DNA from: Octopus vulgaris
Lineage: Eukaryota
NCBI GenBank assembly: GCA_951406725.2
Contig: OX597831.1
Span: forward strand, 38,440,001-38,504,000
Length of the DNA stretch: 64,000 bases
Direction of reading: 5' to 3'
In this document: positions 415-58,831 of the stretch, piece by piece
How the letters are laid out: the number at the start of each line of letters is the position of its first letter
Position numbering within the stretch: position 1 is the first letter of the stretch
The notes under the pieces: generated by a model
Told to the model about the DNA's origin: nothing
Seen by the model: the letters and a program-made list of their open reading frames with translations, nothing else
Database searches by the model: none
Position numbers and translations under genes: made by a program

Positions 415-417
415 TAA

Positions 418-1216
<799 letters not shown>

Positions 1217-2257: not shown

Positions 2258-2658
<401 letters not shown>

Positions 2659-3045
2659 TTCAGTAGTTTTATTTTTCATAGCGTGCTTTCACTTCACTAC
2701 CGAGCGCAGCTCTGTGTGCCTTGGGTATGTGCTGTGGTTTGTTGTGATACTCTGATGGATATTGTATTGAAAGTGTTCTGCGTAGGATGTGTGCAGTGCC
2801 CAGTAGTGCAATTTTCTGTATGTTATATGTGTTTGTAAGTCCTGGTGTTTTTGTTATGTATTTGTGTGAATATTTTTTTATCATGCCTAATGCACCTACT
2901 ATGATAGGAATTGTTTCTGTTTTTAGATTCCACATTCTGGTTACCTCTATTTCCAGGTCTTTGTATTTTGAAAGTTTCTCCATTTCTTTTAGAGACACGT
3001 TTTCATCTGCCGGTATTGATACATCAATTAGAAAGCATTTTTTTC

Positions 3046-3046
<1 letters not shown>
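2659..3046 (-). mobile_element. 5'-truncated R4/Dong copy (RLE C-terminus plus 3' UTR), same family as 587-1157
   Basis: Closely similar to 587-970. ORF 2669-2998 reads EKLSKYKDLEIEVTRMW...IQKIALLGTAHILRRTL. (TAA)n on both sides. Confidence 0.9.
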
Positions 3047-3114
<68 letters not shown>

Positions 3115-3177: not shown

Positions 3178-3187
3178 GTTGTTGTTA

Positions 3188-3420
3188 AGGCGGTGAGCTG
3201 GCAGAATTGATTTTACACCGGGCAAAATGCTTAAAGGTCTTTCGTCCGTCTTGACATTCTGAGTTCAAATTCTACCGAGGCCGACTTTGCTTTTCATCCA
3301 TTCGGGTTCGATAAATTAATTACCAGTAAAACACTAGGGTCGATATAATCGACTAGTCCCTCCCTGCACCTCCATCCCCCCTGAAAAATTGCAGGCTTTG
3401 TGTCTTTAAGAGAAAGGATT
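3188..3420 (+). mobile_element. tRNA-headed SINE family B (Nin/Deu-like core)
   Basis: Head GGCGGTGAGCTGGCAGAA, B-box GAGTTCAAAT, core TTTCATCCaTTCGGGtTCGATAAA..TACCAGT. Homologous to 16352, 35681 and 57897. Confidence 0.8.
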
Positions 3421-3495
3421 ATTATTACTATTATTATTGTTATTATCAGTGATGTTGCTGGTGTTATTGTTGATGAGGATAATATCATTATCACT

Positions 3496-3676
3496 CACGC
3501 CGGGCGAAATGCGGTATTTCGTCTGCCGCTACGTTCTGACTTCAAATTCCGCCGTGGTCGACTTTGCCTTTCATCCTTTCCGGGCTCGATTAAATAAGTA
3601 CCAGTTACGCACTGGGGTCAATGTGATCGACTTAATTCCATCCCACAAATCCCAGGCCTTGTACTTCCAGTAGAAA
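3496..3676 (+). mobile_element. SINE family B, 5'-truncated
   Basis: CGCCGGGCGAAATGC...GTCGACTTTGCCTTTCATCCTTTCCGGGCTCGATTAAATAAGTACCAG. Confidence 0.75.
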
Positions 3677-16351: not shown

Positions 16352-16752
16352 TTATTTTTGTTTTGTCGACAAGGGACTAAACAAGGACAGACAAAGGGAT
16401 TAAGTGGATTACTTAGACCCCAGTTCGTAACTGGTACTTAAGTTATCGACCCCGAAAGGATGAAAGGCAAAGTCGATCTCGGCGGAATTTGAGCTCAGAA
16501 CATAACGACAGACGAAATACCTATTTCTTTACAGCCCACAAGGGGCTAAACACAAAGAGGACAAACAAGGAAAGACAAACAGATTAAGTCGATTACATCG
16601 ACACCAGTGCGTAACTGGTACTTATTTAATCGACCCCGAAAGGATGAAAGGCAAAGTCGACCTCGGCGGAATTTGATCTCAGAACGTAGCGACAGACGAA
16701 ATACTGCTAAGCATTTAGCCCGGCGTGCTAACGTTTCTGCCAGCTCGCCGCC
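16352..16752 (-). mobile_element. SINE family B, dimeric copy with TSD
   Basis: One head plus two body/tail units. 14-bp TSD TTTTTGATTATTTC at 16338-16351 and 16753-16766. Confidence 0.9.
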
Positions 16753-17916
16753 TTTTTGATTATTTCATTAGTTTCCTTCTAAAGAGTGTGGCCATGGTGA
16801 ACATCTTCCTCAACATTCCTTAATTCAATTGTTTTATAACACTTGTGGCATCTTGTCGGAAGCTTTTAATCTTTTTATTTTTCATCGGTTTCCTGATGGA
16901 TAACCTTGACATAAAATGATGGAACTCGGACGGAATTATTATTTAAATCAATGTTTGAGGTTAGAGTCACTGATATTGGTTGGTTACCTCGCTGCACTTT
17001 ACATTTAACAGGAGTCTCTCAGGACTAGACTAAAGCATCATTAGGAAACCGAGAAAATGAGAGATTTTGCCTAGTTGTCTGAAGTAAAAGAATTAAAATC
17101 AAATAACCATGAAATTATACCTTACTACTGCTGAAATGAAAGATACGTATCAAAGTAAATGCATTTTTAGCTGTTCTATGCATAACACTAGCACCAGATG
17201 GTTATGCTTGGGACATGTGGTAAATAATCACAGAAAACAACCATAATGCAGTAACGAACGATTTGAAAAGCACATGCATTTGTAGGTGAATATTCTTCAA
17301 AATGTTATATCCTCTAAAAACGAAAGGAAGCATAAAATACAGGAAGTAGTTCTAAATATAATACGTTAGGAAACAAAAACAAGGGCGATTTTGGTTGGAA
17401 TATTTCTTCTTTAATATATTTTAGATGCTCCTTAATTGTATTTGTTTTGCTAAATGATATTTTAATGTACTTCCAAGCTGGCTTTGTATAATTCATAGCG
17501 GAATTAAATTAGCGGCAAAAATGGTTGCTCTGATTTGAAACAATGTTTTGTTTTTAATTGTTACTTTAAGTTACCTCTATATGTGTGTCTTATTTTCTAT
17601 TTGTTTCTTTAAGAAATCAACAAAAACTACTTCAGACAATGTACAGAAATCAACATAAAAATATTGTAATTACAATATTTAGAGAGTGATGCTCCAGCAT
17701 AGATGTCAAGTGATCTTCAAAATGAAAACTAGTAAACGAATTGTACAAAACAGACTACACATTTCACCAAATCTGTTCCCTATATGTACCAGTCTGTTTG
17801 CAACCATCTCATTTCTAAGACAAAATATTCATAGCACGTAAACAAAATGTGATTAATTATAACTATAACAACAACGAGAGCAACGTGTTATGAAAAGCAG
17901 TAAGGGAGGCTTAGAA

Positions 17917-21330: not shown

Positions 21331-22307
21331 GATGTCTTGCAAACAACTTGCACATGCAAGTGCTACCAGTTAAAAGCTCCGTATACCGGAAGCTAGCAAG
21401 TGTATGGTGTCATCAGGAGAGAATGCGCACCGTTTCGGGGCCTACCTCTCGACGGCATCAATGCGCACCGGCCCCCCCTCACTGATATGAGACCCCATCT
21501 GCTAGATCAGCTGGTTATGAAGAACTCAATATACTTCTAGCCATCGCTCATCGTCTCTTTTTAACCAAATCCAGTGGCTAGCCTTCTCCACTGTAGATTG
21601 GATATCAGTCATGGTGGTATTGACTTTACGATGAGTTAAGTCTATCGATAACAAGAGTCGTCTCACGCTGTGTCCAACAAACCCTCTACATCCGACTTCG
21701 ATAGGAAAATGTTCCGCTTTCCAGCCTGAGTCTTGACATTCCTCAAGGAGATTTTCATAACGGTTCAATTTCGAGCCCGAGCGGCGTCCATATTATCTTC
21801 ATGAGGAACCGTTAGCTCGACAATATTTACAACTTTCTTTCTTTCACACCACATCAAAATATCTGTTTTTTTCGAAACTGGGATGGGAAAGAAAACCTGG
21901 CACCCAGGTAAATCTGCAGTTACCTCCCAATAGCCGTTCCACTTTTCATTTTTCTCAGGAAGTTTCTTGATCTTCTTCTTGAAACGGATCCGCTGACCTG
22001 GTCGCACGAAGGTAATGAAATCTCTTGATGGTACTTTTAACGGTTTTTCCTCAGTGTTGTTGAGATGAATTTGATTCTTTATAGCATTGAAGATAACCTT
22101 AAGGACCAAGTTGTGCCTCCATGTATACCTGTTCAATGCTAAAGAACAGTTAGAAAGAATATATTTTAGTGTACCGACCTTTCCACATTTGCAGATGTCA
22201 TTCTCTAAGACCCTCCATATTCCTAAATTCGTAGGTGATGGCAAAACATCATAAGATGAACGAATCAGGAAACTCAGCCGAGATGTCGTCCACTTCCACA
22301 TCTCACA
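21331..22307 (-). mobile_element. 5'-truncated HERO-clade RLE non-LTR retrotransposon in (TA)n
   Basis: FLIRSSYDVLPSPTNL..W...C.CG..GTL.YILSNC..AL.RYTWRHN.VL...ELTVPHE...PIEVGCRGF...VEKASHWIWLKR, with one frameshift near 21766. (TA)n on both sides. Confidence 0.82.
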
Positions 22308-22314
22308 TATATAT

Positions 22315-22726
22315 ATATATAATATTAATTAGAGACAAAACCACTATTATGCAAATCAAACAAAGAAAGACTTAATCCAATACATAAAAAAATTTTATAT
22401 AAATTAAATGAAATTAAATTCGCCACTACAATTGTTTCGTGTCTCTTCCAAGGACATTCATCAGGTGGTATTCAGATCTTCTATTCAATTTTAAGTTATG
22501 AAGTCCTGATGAATGTCCTTAGAAGAGACACGAAACAATTGTAGTGGCGAATTTAATTTTATTTAATTTATATAAAATTTTTATGTATTGGATTAAGTCT
22601 TTCTTTGTTTGATTTGCATAATAGTGGTTTTGTCTCTAATTAATATTATATAATATTTTACTATAAAATTGGATTCAGTCCTAAATCTGATTTTTCCCTA
22701 TAAATTTGGATTTATTCCCTAATATT

Positions 22727-28235: not shown

Positions 28236-28276
<41 letters not shown>

Positions 28277-28280
<4 letters not shown>

Positions 28281-28756
28281 AGAGAGTGAAAATCAAAAAC
28301 ATTTACCATTAACGATATATCGCGGACTGATCAGTTTCTACCTCTTTCTAGCAAAACAGACAGAATATGTTTGCCAAGGCAAGGTTCGTCAGCGGGACGC
28401 CTTCCTAACTCTAGATGCGCAGAGCGTTAGAGCACATGTTGATCTAACAATTTGTATATCTTAACTTTTCAAACCTCTGCGCAGACGCAAAACATACCCG
28501 GCGACATAGGGCATGCCGGTAAAAAATTTTACGAACAAATTTATCAAGTGATATGTGAACATATGTGAACGTCCCGCTGACGAACCTTGCCTTGGCAAAC
28601 ATATTCTGTCTGTTTTGCTAGAAAGAGGTAGAAACTGATCAGTCCGGGATATATCGTTAATGGTAAATGTTTTTGATTTTTACTGTCTCCATGAATTTAT
28701 CCCGCTTTGTGTCTCTAGCACTAAGCTTCCTTATTTGGGAGCCTTTATTATATTGC
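28277..28756. mobile_element. Penelope-type fold-back element next to (TA)n
   Basis: ~120-bp inverted arms (28277-28399 and 28570-28692), ~170-bp spacer, 3' extension, and a hammerhead in both arms. Confidence 0.85.
28572..28649 (+). ncRNA. Type I hammerhead ribozyme with extended stem II
   Basis: TCCCG CTGACGA ACCT...TTGGCAAA...TTTGCTAG...AGGT A GAAAC TGATCA GTC CGGGA: perfect 5-bp stem I, palindromic loop TGATCA, GUC triplet. Minus-strand copy at 28320-28397. Confidence 0.88.
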
Positions 28757-35128: not shown

Positions 35129-36068
35129 CGGGGAGGTACCCAAAAGAAACCGGAATTTTGCAATATTATTTTATTCGTTTAGTTTTGCATCTTTACACTT
35201 TTATCACGTTCAATGTGTTTTACATTTCAAGTAATGCATCCGTCCAGACGTGTTTTCCACTATGCGAAGTGGTGTTGGAACTCTTGCATGTGATGCCTCT
35301 TAACGCCTCCGTGGATTTTTCTTCGCCTTCCATATCTGCAAATTCCGTAGCACCAGATTTCGTCACCAGTGATGAAATTCGAAAAAAGATCCAGATTAAC
35401 TTCCAACTTCTCCTTCGGTTCAGGTCACGTATCCAATAATGATTGCTTTTCCGTGAGCAAGCGAGACGCAACTTTTGCTGCAACTCATTTCATTCAGATT
35501 TCCTCACTTAAAATTCCTTGGCTGGAGCTCCAGGACATACCAGTCATATCAAATCGTTCGTCAACTGTTTCGTGACGCTCCTTCAAAATCAGTTCGCGAA
35601 TTTTCCTGATGATTTCCTTCATTCGAGAGGTCGTTGGTCGCCCTAACCTTGATTGGTCTACAGGCAACAAGTGAACATTCCTTATTTTTTTTATTGCTCA
35701 CAAGGGGCTGAACATAGAGGGGACAACAAGGACAGACAAAGGAATTAAAAACGATTATATCGACCCCAGTGCGTGCTAGTACTTAATTTATCGACCCCGA
35801 AAGGATGAAAGGCAAATTCAACCTCGGCGGAATTTGAACTCAGAACGTGACGGCAGACGAAATGCAGCTAAGCATTTCGCTCAGTGTGCTAATATTTCTG
35901 CCAGCTTGCCGCACGAGCACATTCCTAAAGTGTAGAAACCTCTCGTAGACTTATGTTTTGATCATGGCAGGGTCCTTGTAAGCTATTTGAAGCATAACAA
36001 CTGTTTCGGCCGCCGTTTTACCCCAGCAAAAAACAGAATTTCACAGAAGTTACTTTTGGGTAACCCCT
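35129..36068 (-). mobile_element. Degenerate, internally deleted mariner with a SINE insertion
   Basis: TIR-like GGGAGGTACCCAAAAGAAAC and GTTACTTTTGGGTAACCCCT. Minus-strand translation RLGRPTT...KIRELIL...VAAK...LLT...FITGDEIW. Confidence 0.75.
35681..35912 (-). mobile_element. SINE family B nested in the mariner
   Basis: Family B core, flanked by an ACATTCCT direct repeat (partial TSD). Confidence 0.85.
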
Positions 36069-38251: not shown

Positions 38252-38984
<733 letters not shown>

Positions 38985-40173: not shown

Positions 40174-40739
40174 TGTACATATATAATTATAAATAAGGGC
40201 GCTGGAGGGAGAACGCCAATACGATAGAATAAGATGTCAAATATCTACAAACGACTCTTAATTTGTTCTCTTTTTTACACAAGGCTGAATGCGAAGAAAT
40301 TGACAAGAAGAAATGTCATAGATCTTGTCCATTTCCTCGCATTCGGCCTCTTCAGTTTCATTCATTCTCAAATGCTTGTACAGTGCTTTATTACACACAT
40401 GTGAGTGAGAACACTTTGAGATATTTTTGGTATCTAACATATGTCAGATACTGCGAGCGCTGCTTCTGATTGGTCAATCCATGGTGATGACCCGAGGTCA
40501 CGGTGACGGCACCACTTTTGTCATTCATAAGTTACAACTAAACTTTCACGAGCCGGTAGAATGTAGCCATGTAATTCAACAAACATACTATCTTTTTTAT
40601 ACCAGATATCATTTAAAGTTATATACACATAAAATATAAACATTTCTGGTCGTAATTCAATTTTTTGTTGCCAAAAAAATCACAACATATATCGTCTGCT
40701 CGTCGATACTCTTGCAGTGCAGGTAGATCTATCAAGAAG

Positions 40740-42278
40740 ATGGCTAATGTTATCGATATCAAGGTGAATGATTTTGTTAAGATTGATGGTAAAGATGGGG
40801 GAAGAGTATTATCCGTTGTTCAACCTCTTGGAACATACAGAATGTTCAATGTGAAGATAAATACTGGCCAAGTTCGACATGTTGCTGGATACAGGTTAAC
40901 AAAGGTACCTGAAACAGTGTCATCGACGAGTGGATTGTCATCGAACCCTGCATTTAACATCCCTGATGAGGTGTACAATGATCTTCTTCGTGACGATTTC
41001 TTTGATGATAGCCATAATGATCTTGAATTTCAACCGAGGTATGATCATTCTGGAATAGATAAATTCGTTCAAGGTAATCAAAATAAAAACACTCTTCGGA
41101 AAACAAACTATGATGTTAAACGATTGTTTGCTTTCATAGCGACAAATGGCGACACGCGTCCAACTGAATCTATCGACAAAGGCGAAGTTTGTGACATTCT
41201 CTGTGCTTTCTTTATATCGTTACGAAGGCCGGACGGTAGCAACTATGAACATTCATCTTTGAGGGGAATGTTATCCAGTATTGAAAGATATCTGAAGTCA
41301 AAACACTACTCGACGTCACTATTCTCGGACGGGACATTCGTGAAACTACATGACGTACTAAAAACGAAGCAAATGCTGTTGAAAAGTTAAGGAATGGGAA
41401 ACCTCCCTCGAGGCGCGGAATCTCTCTCCGACGATGATATCAACAAGCTATAGGAATGTGACCAGCTCGGTCCGAACACACCTGAATCCATCCTCAACAC
41501 GCTATGGTGGAACAACACCGTTCACTTTGGTATCCGGAGTGTCAAACCTCACAACGACATGCGATGGGGCGACGTTTCTTTGCATGTTGACAATGAAGGC
41601 AAGGAATTCCTTCAGTTTAGGGAGCGAGAGTCCAAAACTTGTCAAGGTGATAATCTCGACCATGCACGTAACATCTAGCCAAAAGTATGGGCGACGAATG
41701 ATGAGCGTTGTCCAGTTAACCTGTACAAGCGTTTTGCTGATCTGAGACCATCAGATTATTTATCGCCGGATTCACCATTTTATTTGGCCACCAACTGCAA
41801 AGATGCCTCCCATTCTCATCCCTGGTTTAAACGTCAACCGGTCGGTGTCAACAAACTAGGTACAATTATGAAAAGGGTGGCTAAATCAGCTGGTTTGGAC
41901 AATCGAAGATTCACGAACCATTCAGCACGCAAATACCTTGTGCAGAAGCTCGCTGACCAGAACACTCCTCCAACTGAAATCATGCAGATATCTGGACATC
42001 GTAATGTGCAAAGCATCAATAGTTACAGCAATATTTCCCTGGATCGTCATCGTGCCATCAGTAACATCCTTAGTAGCAACAACGACCAGCCGGGTTCGCT
42101 TGTACCTCCGTCACACACAGCAGCAGCGAGTGCAAGTGAACTCCCTTCCACCGTCAACGTTACGTCGAGTCAATCTCGGAACGCTGTCACTTGCTTTGGT
42201 TCATTGCACTCCATTTTCTCGGTTCCAATATTTGGGGAAACAATCAATTTGAACTTCTTTGGCTCAGATGCAAAGTGA
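40740..42278 (+). pseudogene. DUF3504-type tyrosine recombinase (CryptonA; related to KCTD1/ZMYM/QRICH1 domains) with three in-frame stops
   Basis: Single frame of 513 codons: NKNTLRKT...LCAFFISLRRPDGSNYEHSSL...SIERYL...LGPNTPESI..TLWWNN..HFGIR...ER.SKT.QG...RCPV.LY...WF..QPVGVNKL...TNHSARK...IMQISGHRNVQSINSY. R-K-HxxR-H-Y catalytic residues are present. Stops TAA 41388, TAG 41451, TAG 41676. Confidence 0.9.
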
Positions 42279-42642
42279 CCTCGTCTCACAGATAATGAGG
42301 ACTGTTAAGTTTTCCTGGACTATTGTGCTCTACTCTGACTGACATTGCTGCTCGAAAACATGTTTGAGTATTATTAAAGTTATTGAAGATTCAATCTGTT
42401 ATGTATTTCTTGAACGTGAACTTGAATGTTAACAAAATGTTAAATAGTCATCAGTTATCAGTCATTTCACCTGAAAACTTAGCGCTATAAAGTCGGACTA
42501 TCTTCCTGCGGCATGACATCTTTTAAAGTAACACATTGTGACGTCACTGACGTGAAATCAAGCTGTATTCATGCGCGCTTCAACATGATGTGAAGAATTT
42601 AATTATTAGATTAATAAAATATGGTCGTTTATTCGTGTGTAA

Positions 42643-42802
42643 TAAATAAAATACCAAACTCATTCCCTATGGATACCGTATTTATTACAACTCGTGGCTT
42701 GTAAACGTATCTAACTCGCTTTCGTTCGTTAGATACGTTTACAAGCCACTCGTTGTAATAAATACGGTATCCATAGGGAACTCGTTTAGTATTCTCTATT
42801 TA
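42643..42802. repeat. ~160-bp terminal palindrome of the Crypton
   Basis: Core arms 42663-~42716 and ~42726-42780 pair perfectly except at symmetric TC/TC bubbles inside ACTCG-type motifs. Confidence 0.95.
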
Positions 42803-43565
42803 TCGTTGCAATTCTTTCCTACCGAAGCCTGGCCTTCTTACTTCCAATAAAAGCGGTTCTGTGGCATTTTTTACATACCATGTATGTTGTTTTCCTCTGC
42901 TCTAATGCAGTGTTCGCATCGAATCAGTCCTCTTATCCCGCTTTTTCTTGGTACATATAGTCTGTCCGAGTCATTATTTGGGTGGAGTGACCCATATGAA
43001 GTCAACAACTCCCTCGTCATTCTGTCTTAGCTGTTTAGTTCCTCTACTGTCCATGCGATTACCCCTGCTCCATATCCAAGGAGTGAAACCGCCCCGGACT
43101 TGATTGCTTCAATCTTACTTCTTCCGTTTAATTTCGACTTTAGGATCCGTCTCAGTGTGCGAAGTACTCCTCCTTAAAATTTTCTGTCATTTCTTTCTCC
43201 ATGAATTTATCCATTTCTAATACTTCCAAGTACTTATAGACCGTCTCTTCTATCTGCTTCATAACCTTCCCCGGCGGTATCGCTAGAGAGTTGATACATT
43301 TGATTTTACTTCTCTTCAAGTCTAACACACCACACCTTTTCAGTCCGAACTCCTTTCTGATATCAGCACTCAAAGTTTACACCGTATCAACGAGAGAACC
43401 GACTTGGGATTCATCTTTACCATAAAATTTGAGGTCCTCCACTTCGCCATATTTTTTCCAAGCAGTCGCTCAACATTCGATGCAATACCAAATAGGTTCA
43501 TAAATTCCATAATTCAAGAATGTGGGATCACATCGTACGCCTTACGATAATCAAAACCCAGAGAC
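42803..43565 (-). mobile_element. Degenerate R4/Dong reverse-transcriptase fragment
   Basis: DYRKAYDVIPHS...DLKFYGKDE...EFGLKRCGVL...YKYLEVLE...ILKSKLNGR.KI.AI...LHP..D.DRLYVPR..G.RGL. Its upstream side abuts (TTA)n. Confidence 0.8.
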
Positions 43566-57896: not shown

Positions 57897-58492
57897 GGCG
57901 GCGAGCTGGCAGAAACGTTAGCGCGCCGGGCGAAATGCTTAGCGGTATTTCGTCTGCCGTTACGTTCTGAGTTCAAATTCCGCCAAGGTCGGCTTTGCCT
58001 TTCATCCTTTCGGGGTCGATTAAATAAGTACCAGTTACGCAATAGGGCCGATGTAATCGACTTAATCCGTTTGTTTGTCCTCTCTGTGTTTAGCCCCTTG
58101 TGGGTAGTAAAGAAATAGGTATTTCGTCTGCCGTTATGTTCTGAGTTCAAATTCTGCCGAGGTCGACTTTGCCTTTCATCCTTTCGGGGTCGATTGAATC
58201 AGTACCAGTTACGCACTCTAGGGTCGATATAATGGACTTAATCCGCTTGTCTGTCCTTGTTTGTCCTCTCTGTGTTTAGCCCCTTGTGGATAGTAAAGGA
58301 ATAGGCATTTCGTCTGCCGCTACGTTCTGAGTTCAATTTCCGCCGAGGTTTGACTTTGCCTTTAAATCCTTTCGGGATCGATAAATTAAGTACCAGTTGT
58401 TCATTGGGGGGGGGGGTGTAATCGACTTCATCCCTTTGTCTGTCCTTGTTTGTCCCCTCTATGTTTAGCCCCTTGTAGGTAATAAAGAAAAT
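57897..58492 (+). mobile_element. SINE family B, trimeric copy with TSD
   Basis: One head plus three tandem ~185-bp units. 19-bp TSD AAGTATGC(C/T)TTGTTTAAAA at 57878-57896 and 58493-58511. Confidence 0.92.
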
Positions 58493-58831
58493 AAGTATGC
58501 TTTGTTTAAAAGATGTCTTAGAAACTATAAGCTACGGAGATAGACCCTAGATTTTTCTACTTCGTTTTGGAAAATAGCAAGAAAAAATTAGCAAAAAAAG
58601 ATGTTGAATGTACTTGGGTAACGATTTTGATCCGGTTTTACAGCGATGCTAAAATTTTATAACTATAAAAATCGATATCTCATATTTCAATCAAAAATAA
58701 GAACAAAAGAATATAGGAAAGAAACCGTTTCTCCCAAAAGACTGAGTAGTTCGCTATTACTTAATGTACGTACCTACTCACAAACTAGACATACCTAAAT
58801 TTATATATTTATGAACGTATCTGTCTTTGCA

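What the first reader, a model, noticed from the sequence alone, without database searches (positions are those of the whole stretch)
40190..42802. Near-intact CryptonA-like tyrosine-recombinase element
Seen: a 513-codon frame with all catalytic motifs (GIR, SKT, NHSAR, SGH, NSY), only three stops and no frameshift, bracketed by hairpins. Established: DUF3504-type YRs define CryptonA, the source of domesticated KCTD1, KIAA1958, ZMYM2-4 and QRICH1 domains, and the Crypton mechanism is poorly characterised. Inference: a relatively young copy, so a reconstructable or active family may exist. Its higher GC relative to the flanks is compatible with recent arrival.
Basis: partly seen in the sequence, partly recalled or inferred. 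Interest (0 to 1): 0.75.

Follow-up and report, generated by a model that had tools for sequence, protein, structure and literature searches.

The report
Octopus Crypton transposon with folded end
This is a broken but little-decayed copy of an octopus jumping gene whose sister copies still carry a full-length tyrosine recombinase gene, and its ends share with distant animal relatives a long bulged hairpin that likely lets the enzyme act on folded single-stranded DNA, which would make the never-demonstrated jumping mechanism of this transposon group testable.

Summary
The element is real: a DUF3504 tyrosine-recombinase (CryptonA-type) DNA transposon of Octopus. Corrections: the family frame is 522 codons and this copy has four premature stops, not three; the element is 40388-42799, inserted without a true target duplication into a decayed LINE-like repeat; the left hairpin (40282-40349) lies outside it; GC says nothing about age. 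The family is multi-copy. DNA contigs from 4 of 4 runs lack the three internal stops, full-length frames are annotated in O. vulgaris and O. sinensis, and short internally deleted derivatives are far more abundant. Present activity is not shown. The new part is the end anatomy, shared with 38-46%-identity relatives and one held-out locus: ends TTATTA...CTAT, a 140-165-nt terminal hairpin with CTCG mismatches facing the same way on both arms, and an internal inverted copy of the end-to-end junction. This suggests recombination on folded single-stranded DNA, as at integron attC sites (inferred, about 0.4). Animal Crypton termini are listed as not determined in the founding paper; Repbase was not seen. 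This scan found the same end anatomy earlier in other genomes (e1-7880953, e1-9883132, e1-9829197).

The parts
40388..42799 (+). CryptonA-type DNA transposon, 2412 bp (ends can slide by up to 5 nt, 40387/40392 to 42798/42803, because the target here begins with TTAT)
   Evidence: Uninterrupted host-repeat contigs in 4 of 4 runs; contigs starting at 40388 (records 9 and 25); end consensus of relatives
40388..40398 (+). Left terminus TTATTACACAC; its reverse complement occurs once, just inside the terminal hairpin
   Evidence: 1 of 2000 second-order shuffles of the element body held it anywhere
40740..42308 (+). Intronless recombinase gene, 522 codons in the family, with premature stops at 41388, 41451, 41676 and 42279; R266, K299, H394, R397, H420 and Y429 intact
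40752..40913 (+). Codes for residues about 5-58, a predicted small beta-barrel (SH3/KOW-like) ahead of the recombinase body; lead only
   Evidence: AF2 strands with pLDDT 82-90 over residues 11-50; Atlas structure matches TM 0.80-0.87 but under the naming bar, feature scores 0.77-0.81; present in 12 aligned relatives; single-sequence fold failed
42635..42670 (-). Internal inverted copy of the end-to-end junction (left-end complement followed by the inner hairpin arm)
42640..42799 (.). Terminal imperfect hairpin; mismatches at CTCG facing the same way on both arms (42691/42749; outer pair near 42659/42781, left copy reads CTCA)
40351..40387 (-). Left remnant of the host repeat, a high-copy decayed non-LTR-retrotransposon-like element
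   Evidence: loose ends and joints
42800..43560 (-). Host repeat continued; frameshifted RT-like peptides (motif likeness to R4/Dong-type LINEs is recalled; no Pfam RT hit)

Best explanation
This is a non-coding (four-stop) copy of a multi-copy CryptonA-type DNA transposon of Octopus, likely moved in the past by its own tyrosine recombinase, which is predicted to join the two ends bluntly and likely recognises the joined ends as a folded single-stranded hairpin. Shown: the recombinase family and intact catalytic residues; many copies and short derivatives; the ends; insertion into a host repeat with no extra sequence lost or gained; the hairpin, its one-way CTCG mismatches and the internal complement of the junction, in this family and in distant ones. 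Inferred: (1) the recombinase excises or copies the element as a circle in which ...CTAT abuts TTATTA...; (2) joining the ends extends the hairpin across the junction, so one strand folds into a double-stranded site; (3) the CTCG mismatches make the two strands unequal (tandem G.A on one, tandem T.C on the other; the stability of tandem G.A pairs is recalled), so one strand is preferred, as at integron attC; (4) one strand exchange at a T|(A/T) target needs almost no homology, which explains the missing target duplication, and replication or repair finishes the job. Confidence: about 0.95 for identity as a CryptonA-type transposon, about 0.4 for the folded-strand steps.
For: Pfam DUF3504 1.4e-26 and Phage_integrase 6.1e-9 for the full-length sister P0058; fold matches QRICH1 (E 2.8e-12) and Cre (E 9e-9; Z 17.3, 280 aligned, rmsd 4.5). 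R266, K299, H394, R397, H420, Y429 are at least 90% conserved in 56 relatives. The 90% cluster holds 11 proteins: 1 O. sinensis, 9 O. vulgaris on 5 chromosome-scale contigs, 1 unnamed equal to the window's first 216 aa. The three internal stops read as sense codons in 4 of 4 DNA runs. Empty-form joints in 4 of 4 runs; deletion joints 40548>42397, 40696>42459 and loose ends joining 40543 to the 42590 region. In 80 relative loci (29 DNA families) 10 symmetric two-base-mismatch hairpin sites were found: 8 CTCG/CGAG (7 families), 1 CAAG at the same place in one of those families, 1 other; that class is 1308 of 53,643 eligible 4-mers and appeared 0 times in 10 Markov replicates. Over 22 hairpin ends of 10 families the strand ending in the hairpin holds 63 CTCG and 13 CGAG; a perfect palindrome gives equal numbers. 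The blunt junction pairs in register with the internal copy in 5 of 8 families (19-21 of 24 nt against 7-11 for an overlapped junction). Held-out locus L081, fetched after the pattern was set, shows left end, internal complement, CTCG pair and CTAT end. L035 holds a right end joined bluntly to a left end. In family f1 the gene points the other way while the hairpin polarity follows the end, which argues against an mRNA role.
Against: No circle was seen: no right-to-left joint is among the joints listed for the octopus runs (15 of 67 shown, 15 of 19). L035 can equally be a head-to-tail neighbour. Polarity has exceptions: of 22 ends 17 have CTCG > CGAG, 3 tie (L070 is a perfect palindrome) and 2 are reversed (L008, L058). 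In 3 of 8 families, the octopus one included, the junction and internal copy are offset by 2 nt (11-13 of 24 ungapped). Computed strand preference is small: the CGAG strand folds lower in 16 of 22 ends, higher in 4, tie in 2, by 0-7 kcal/mol. The model resembles Cre (Z about 17) more than the integron integrase 2a3v (Z 12.8). Left ends of f0, f4, f5 and f6 were first located by their match to the internal copy, then only partly confirmed by copy boundaries. The empty sites are paralogous copies of the host repeat, not the orthologous locus.
Confidence: 0.5

Rival explanations
1. Same transposon, but it moves by the conventional Crypton model: a double-stranded circle recombined Cre/Tn916-style. 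ACTCGT boxes are double-stranded binding (arm-type) sites that must face one way; the palindromic flanks are kept alike by fold-back repair, and the internal junction copy is a second binding or inversion site.
For: The circular double-stranded model is the one proposed in print (PMC3212892 parts 1-3; PMC13565253 passages). Best fold matches are Cre and other double-strand recombinases. A predicted extra N-terminal barrel could bind arm-type sites (inference). Family f1 has the gene reversed between the two inverted sites, as an inversion would leave it.
Against: Arm sequences differ wholly between families while pairing and the two-base mismatch persist; a mismatch exists only in a folded strand. 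No consistent 4-6-bp direct repeat in the 9 relatives with both ends read. The one rearranged copy examined (L058) has a 615-bp inversion inside the gene, not between the terminal sites.
Confidence: 0.35
2. The hairpin works at another step (replication origin, nicking or priming site of the excised circle, or a terminator), and recombination itself uses only the short TTATTA/TAATAA boxes.
For: The hairpin lies at one end only and is kept in the short derivatives; terminal hairpins serve such roles in rolling-circle elements (recalled).
Against: The element encodes no second protein; the stem is completed precisely across the end-to-end junction, which ties it to the joining step.
Confidence: 0.12
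3. A decayed domesticated DUF3504 gene (KIAA1958/ZMYM/QRICH1 type) and not a transposon.
For: Databases name relatives 'KIAA1958 homolog' or 'finger MYM-type 2-like'; earlier scan notes report domesticated Crypton-BTB fusions in this genome (unchecked).
Against: Intronless, catalytic tetrad intact, at least 7 loci on 5 O. vulgaris contigs (inferred from overlapping fragments), precise insertion into another repeat, short derivatives, and about 24 residue changes for about 2% DNA divergence, as neutral decay would give.
Confidence: 0.01

Closest known systems
CryptonA DNA transposons of animals (Kojima and Jurka 2011, PMC3212892; parts 1-3 of 7 read, supplement 1 searched), e.g. CryptonA-1_OL, CryptonA-1_LG
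   Same: Single DUF3504-type YR gene with R-H-R-Y, about 2-2.4 kb (listed 1248-2289 bp for autonomous-type families), few long copies and many short non-autonomous ones, a mollusc host already known (Lottia).
   Different: That paper found no terminal repeats in animal Cryptons (all 8 CryptonA rows 'n.d.') and only the YR domain; here the ends, a terminal hairpin, an internal junction complement and a predicted N-terminal barrel are defined. These may be unnoticed general CryptonA traits.
Glomhopper CryptonA of Glomeromycota (PMC13465315; abstract, sections 3 and 7, passages)
   Same: DUF3504 with intact catalytic residues, multi-copy, mobility not shown.
   Different: Boundaries and repeats could not be identified there; 'hairpin' and 'SH3' do not occur in its main text.
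Integron attC sites and CTX phage (PMC3458562; abstract and passages)
   Same: Tyrosine recombinase; two regions of inverted homology over 57-141 bp that recombine as a folded single strand, one strand preferred, one strand exchange.
   Different: Shown by experiment there, inferred here; here the enzyme is inside the mobile unit, the stem is completed only by joining the ends, and the asymmetry is a two-base internal mismatch.
DIRS retrotransposons (described in PMC13465315 section 3)
   Same: YR element with an internal complementary region matching its termini (that it matches both ends is recalled).
   Different: No reverse transcriptase or RNase H here; one gene only.
Domesticated DUF3504 genes QRICH1, ZMYM2-4, KCTD1, KIAA1958
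   Same: Best structural and profile hit is QRICH1.
   Different: They lack the catalytic Y and second R (PMC3212892 part 3); this family keeps them and is dispersed.

Membership tests
CryptonA | YR matches DUF3504 (DIRS and Ngaro YRs do not, per PMC3212892) | tested here: met
CryptonA | Catalytic R-H-R-Y tetrad kept | tested here: met
   R266, H394, R397, Y429 in the window frame and at least 90% of 56 relatives
CryptonA | Single YR gene, no RT, no GCR1_C or other C-terminal domain | tested here: met
   tail 450-522 low confidence in the model
CryptonA | Dispersed multi-copy element with non-autonomous derivatives, animal host | tested here: met
CryptonA | No terminal inverted repeats and no target duplication | tested here: met
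   Termini TTATTA/CTAT are not inverted repeats; no consistent duplication in 9 relatives with both ends (2 share AT); the TTTAT repeat at this locus occurs at 1 of 22 right ends
CryptonA | Groups with named CryptonA, not CryptonV or others, in a YR tree | not testable with these tools
   Repbase/Dfam sequences are not held
Fungal/oomycete Cryptons (F, S) | 4-6-bp terminal direct repeats; GCR1_C or conserved C-terminal region | tested here: not met
DIRS/Ngaro | Reverse transcriptase and RNase H | tested here: not met
   One gene fills the 2.4-kb element
Domesticated DUF3504 gene | Single copy, catalytic residues lost, under purifying selection | tested here: not met
attC-like folded single-strand recombination | Enzyme binds and exchanges one folded strand | not testable with these tools
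   Only sequence anatomy tested

The most novel reading that the evidence does not exclude
Animal DUF3504 Cryptons are integron-like: their recombinase joins the element's ends and recombines a folded single strand chosen by tandem G.A versus T.C mismatches, inserting at T|(A/T) without duplication. It would be a folded-single-strand tyrosine recombinase in eukaryotes, the octopus family would supply natural full-length enzymes and exact substrates, and the human Crypton-derived domains (QRICH1, ZMYM2-4, KCTD1) would descend from a structured-DNA-binding enzyme.
Probability: 0.4. Interest if true: 0.82.

Novelty: new variant of a known kind. Interest (0 to 1): 0.58.

Why it matters
A 2026 review states that Crypton transposition has not been demonstrated experimentally (PMC13565253, passages), and the papers that define CryptonA give no ends. 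Exact ends, target preference, short derivatives and natural full-length recombinase genes from one little-decayed family are what an assay needs. The conserved bulged hairpin gives a sharp prediction that separates a Cre-like from an integron-like route. The copy in this window is itself an ordinary dead transposon.

Tried and rejected
No whole genome is held, so copy number rests on annotated proteins and run contigs. No other copy of the element or its ends lies in the window. Expression: no listed holder is on record as RNA; two runs guessed to be RNA tile much of the gene at contig depth 2-7, inconclusive. Circle junction in octopus runs: none among the listed joints; contigs drop rare forms. 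A 5-bp direct repeat TTTAT as a family trait: rejected, seen at 1 of 22 right ends. Left hairpin as part of the element: rejected. GC as age marker: rejected. Inversion between the terminal sites in L058: rejected, it is internal. Viral contigs: 38 pattern matches, none a relative. Prokaryote genomes: 1 of 3 matches is a relative, on a 7-kb MAG contig, probably host DNA (inference). Rfam: 5 weak miRNA-model matches, all far under gathering score. N-terminal barrel: single-sequence fold pLDDT 41, profile search of PDB gave only QRICH1 and weak ATP-synthase b matches judged spurious; the full-model fold searches barely test residues 1-104. Host repeat: no RT family hit in six frames. Three other inverted repeats of the window show single mismatches and no CTCG pairs. 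Horizontal transfer not claimed: nearest non-octopus protein is 60% identical and unnamed. Literature searches: Crypton+tyrosine recombinase+DUF3504 (4 papers), Crypton+Octopus (19, none on this by listing), CryptonA+direct repeat (2), Crypton+empty site+transposon (15), CryptonV (3), Crypton+hairpin+palindrom (10), Crypton+non-autonomous+subterminal (4), sheared/tandem G (0), Eulor+Crypton (3), folded single-stranded+CTX+attC (1). A Kojima review asked for by recalled DOI is not held. Repbase reports and Dfam entries were not seen and may describe these ends.

Full report
Observation. The frame from ATG 40740 has no frameshift and stops at codons 217, 238, 313 and 514. Its pieces hit DUF3504, Phage_integrase and, below cut-off, QRICH1. 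The closest protein is Octopus sinensis LOC115217879 (95% identity); 54 relatives were found among 7,994 scored candidates, named ones from molluscs and a hemichordate. Its 90% cluster has 11 members: nine O. vulgaris predictions on five chromosome-scale contigs, among them full-length 522-aa and 518-aa proteins, and one unnamed protein equal to the window's first 216 residues. The family frame is thus 522 codons and this copy has four premature stops. R266, K299, H394, R397, H420 and Y429 are intact here and at least 90% conserved over 56 relatives. A model of the 522-aa sister (mean pLDDT 76) matches QRICH1 and Cre.

Boundaries. No genome is held, so I laid contigs of public runs on the region. 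In 4 of 4 DNA runs contigs go from 40389-40391 straight to about 42812-42836, and the loose ends behind 40391 read like the sequence after 42803. The element therefore interrupts a high-copy repeat, which on the minus strand gives frameshifted RT-like peptides (no Pfam hit; the likeness to R4/Dong LINEs is recalled). These are paralogous empty forms, not the orthologous site. TTTAT stands on both sides, so the ends can slide by 5 nt. Contigs starting at 40388 and the ends of relatives place the element at 40388-42799, with no duplication. The 27-bp hairpin at 40282-40349 lies beyond the host remnant, in a third repeat.

Family and age. The contigs read sense codons at the three internal stops in 4 of 4 runs (40 of 282 difference rows were shown and the fourth stop was not among them). 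Long contigs differ from this copy at about 2% (24 of 1079, 21 of 1061 nt). This copy differs from the octopus majority at 24 of 510 residues, other copies at 0.8-4.2%; about 24 residue changes for about 32 base changes is what unselected decay would give (inference). The three long frames each carry private changes, two at near-invariant glycines and one a 4-residue loss after Y429. The O. sinensis protein is 253 of 255 and 219 of 224 identical to two fragments on one O. vulgaris contig and shares their early end, so one insertion likely predates the split of these species. Young yes, active not shown. Joints 40548>42397 and 40696>42459 and loose ends linking 40543 to about 42590 show short derivatives; summed contig depth at the ends is hundreds of times that of the gene. 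The tool warns that depth is no copy number, so I take only 'few long, very many short'. GC does not date the element.

End anatomy. The right end is a hairpin of about 160 nt (z = -15.9). Its mismatches fall where CTCG stands in the same orientation on both arms. Just inside it lies the only reverse complement of the first 11 nt of the element (1 of 2000 shuffles), so that joining the ends would extend the stem across the junction. To test whether this is chance I fetched 80 loci of relatives with 30-58% identity in the best segment, falling into 29 DNA families. A blind scan for symmetric two-base mismatches in hairpins found 10 sites: 8 CTCG/CGAG in 7 families, 1 CAAG at the matching place, 1 other; the class is 2.4% of eligible 4-mers and never arose in 10 Markov replicates. 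Multi-copy alignment of family f1 gave sharp ends with the same design, though with the gene reversed. Family-specific patterns gave left ends starting TTATTA (one TTGTTA, one TTATCA, one TTATTC) and right ends mostly in CTAT or ATAT. After dropping duplicates, internal copies, the L035 junction and three apparently spurious hits, the base before the left end is T in 15 of 20 sites and the base after the right end is A or T in 21 of 22 (L031r:790 dropped as a probable inner arm). None of the 9 relatives with both ends shows more than a 2-nt duplication. Over 22 hairpin ends CTCG outnumbers CGAG 63 to 13; 17 ends follow the rule, 3 tie, 2 are reversed. A blunt junction pairs in register with the internal copy in 5 of 8 families and with a 2-nt offset in 3, the octopus one included. 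L081, fetched afterwards, meets all four predictions. L035 carries a right end joined bluntly to a left end: a circle junction or a head-to-tail neighbour.

Mechanism. A mismatch that is kept while the arms change completely has meaning only in a folded strand or cruciform. Because polarity follows the element end and not the gene, an mRNA role is unlikely. Integron attC sites, 57-141 bp with two inverted regions, recombine as one folded strand with a single exchange, and CTX phage does likewise (PMC3458562, abstract and passages). I propose the same here (about 0.4). The conventional double-stranded circle, the model in print (PMC3212892; PMC13565253), remains a close rival (0.35): the fold is nearer Cre than IntI, computed strand preference is small, and no circle was seen.

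What is known. Kojima and Jurka found no terminal repeats in animal Cryptons and only a YR domain (PMC3212892, parts 1-3 of 7; supplement 1 lists all 8 CryptonA as 'n.d.'). The Glomhopper paper could not define boundaries (PMC13465315, abstract, sections 3 and 7, passages). PMC5753468 (passages) notes terminal similarity between salmon Cryptons and human Eulor5/6 without mention of hairpins; PMC8869645 (passages) notes microsatellite targeting by CryptonV. Ten searches (listed under Tried and rejected) found no description of this anatomy or of an octopus Crypton, but Repbase, Dfam and subscription papers were not seen. After I had noted the model, one search showed that three earlier reports of this scan reached it in other genomes; they are AI notes and not independent proof.

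Verdict. A dead copy of a real, little-decayed octopus CryptonA-type family. The membership is ordinary. The value lies in the exact ends, the conserved bulged hairpin, and natural full-length enzymes, which together make the Crypton mechanism testable.

Noticed in passing
window 40195-40350: A separate lower-copy repeat with a 27-bp hairpin (40282-40349) cuts off the host LINE-like repeat at about 40351; contig depth similar to the recombinase gene. Identity unknown.
   Followed up: partly
window 38379-38774: MITE-like inverted repeat, 172-nt arms, 97% complementary, next to a GA microsatellite; single mismatches only.
   Followed up: partly
window 28269-28700: MITE-like inverted repeat, 131-nt arms, 95%, next to a TA microsatellite.
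   Followed up: partly
window 415-979 and 2489-3053: Direct repeat of about 565 bp at 92.6% identity, 2 kb apart, edged by simple repeats.
   Followed up: no
window 57898-58498, 16373-16756, 35681-35912, 3179-3639: Dispersed repeat with an internal tandem unit of about 180 bp.
   Followed up: no
window 21768-22328 (-): 187-aa open stretch with a C..C and RH motif like the zinc-knuckle/endonuclease end of a non-LTR retrotransposon (motif recalled).
   Followed up: no
P0052 (O. vulgaris CAI9731261.1): The first 100 residues of this recombinase family (87% identity) are predicted fused to transposase-like HTH domains; may be a gene-model artefact.
   Followed up: no
L035:1-75: Right-end arm joined bluntly to a left end in a relative family.
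   Followed up: partly
L031:4347-4563; L050:2515-2630; L058:1433-1541: Related hairpin-ended elements sit right at or near the ends of others (tail-to-tail in L031), hinting at clustering or self-targeting.
   Followed up: no
L008:2700-2730; L058:700-760; L070:3803-3916: Hairpins with a flipped inner part or a perfect palindrome; real arm exchange or assembly artefact.
   Followed up: no
run X17, window 42645: One contig leaves the element exactly at the internal TAATAA box and goes on into unrelated sequence: a hairpin-less copy or recombination at the internal site.
   Followed up: no
L081 (GTDB MAG contig CBDDTI010000338.1): A complete animal-type Crypton on a 7-kb contig of a bacterial MAG, probably host contamination.
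   Followed up: partly
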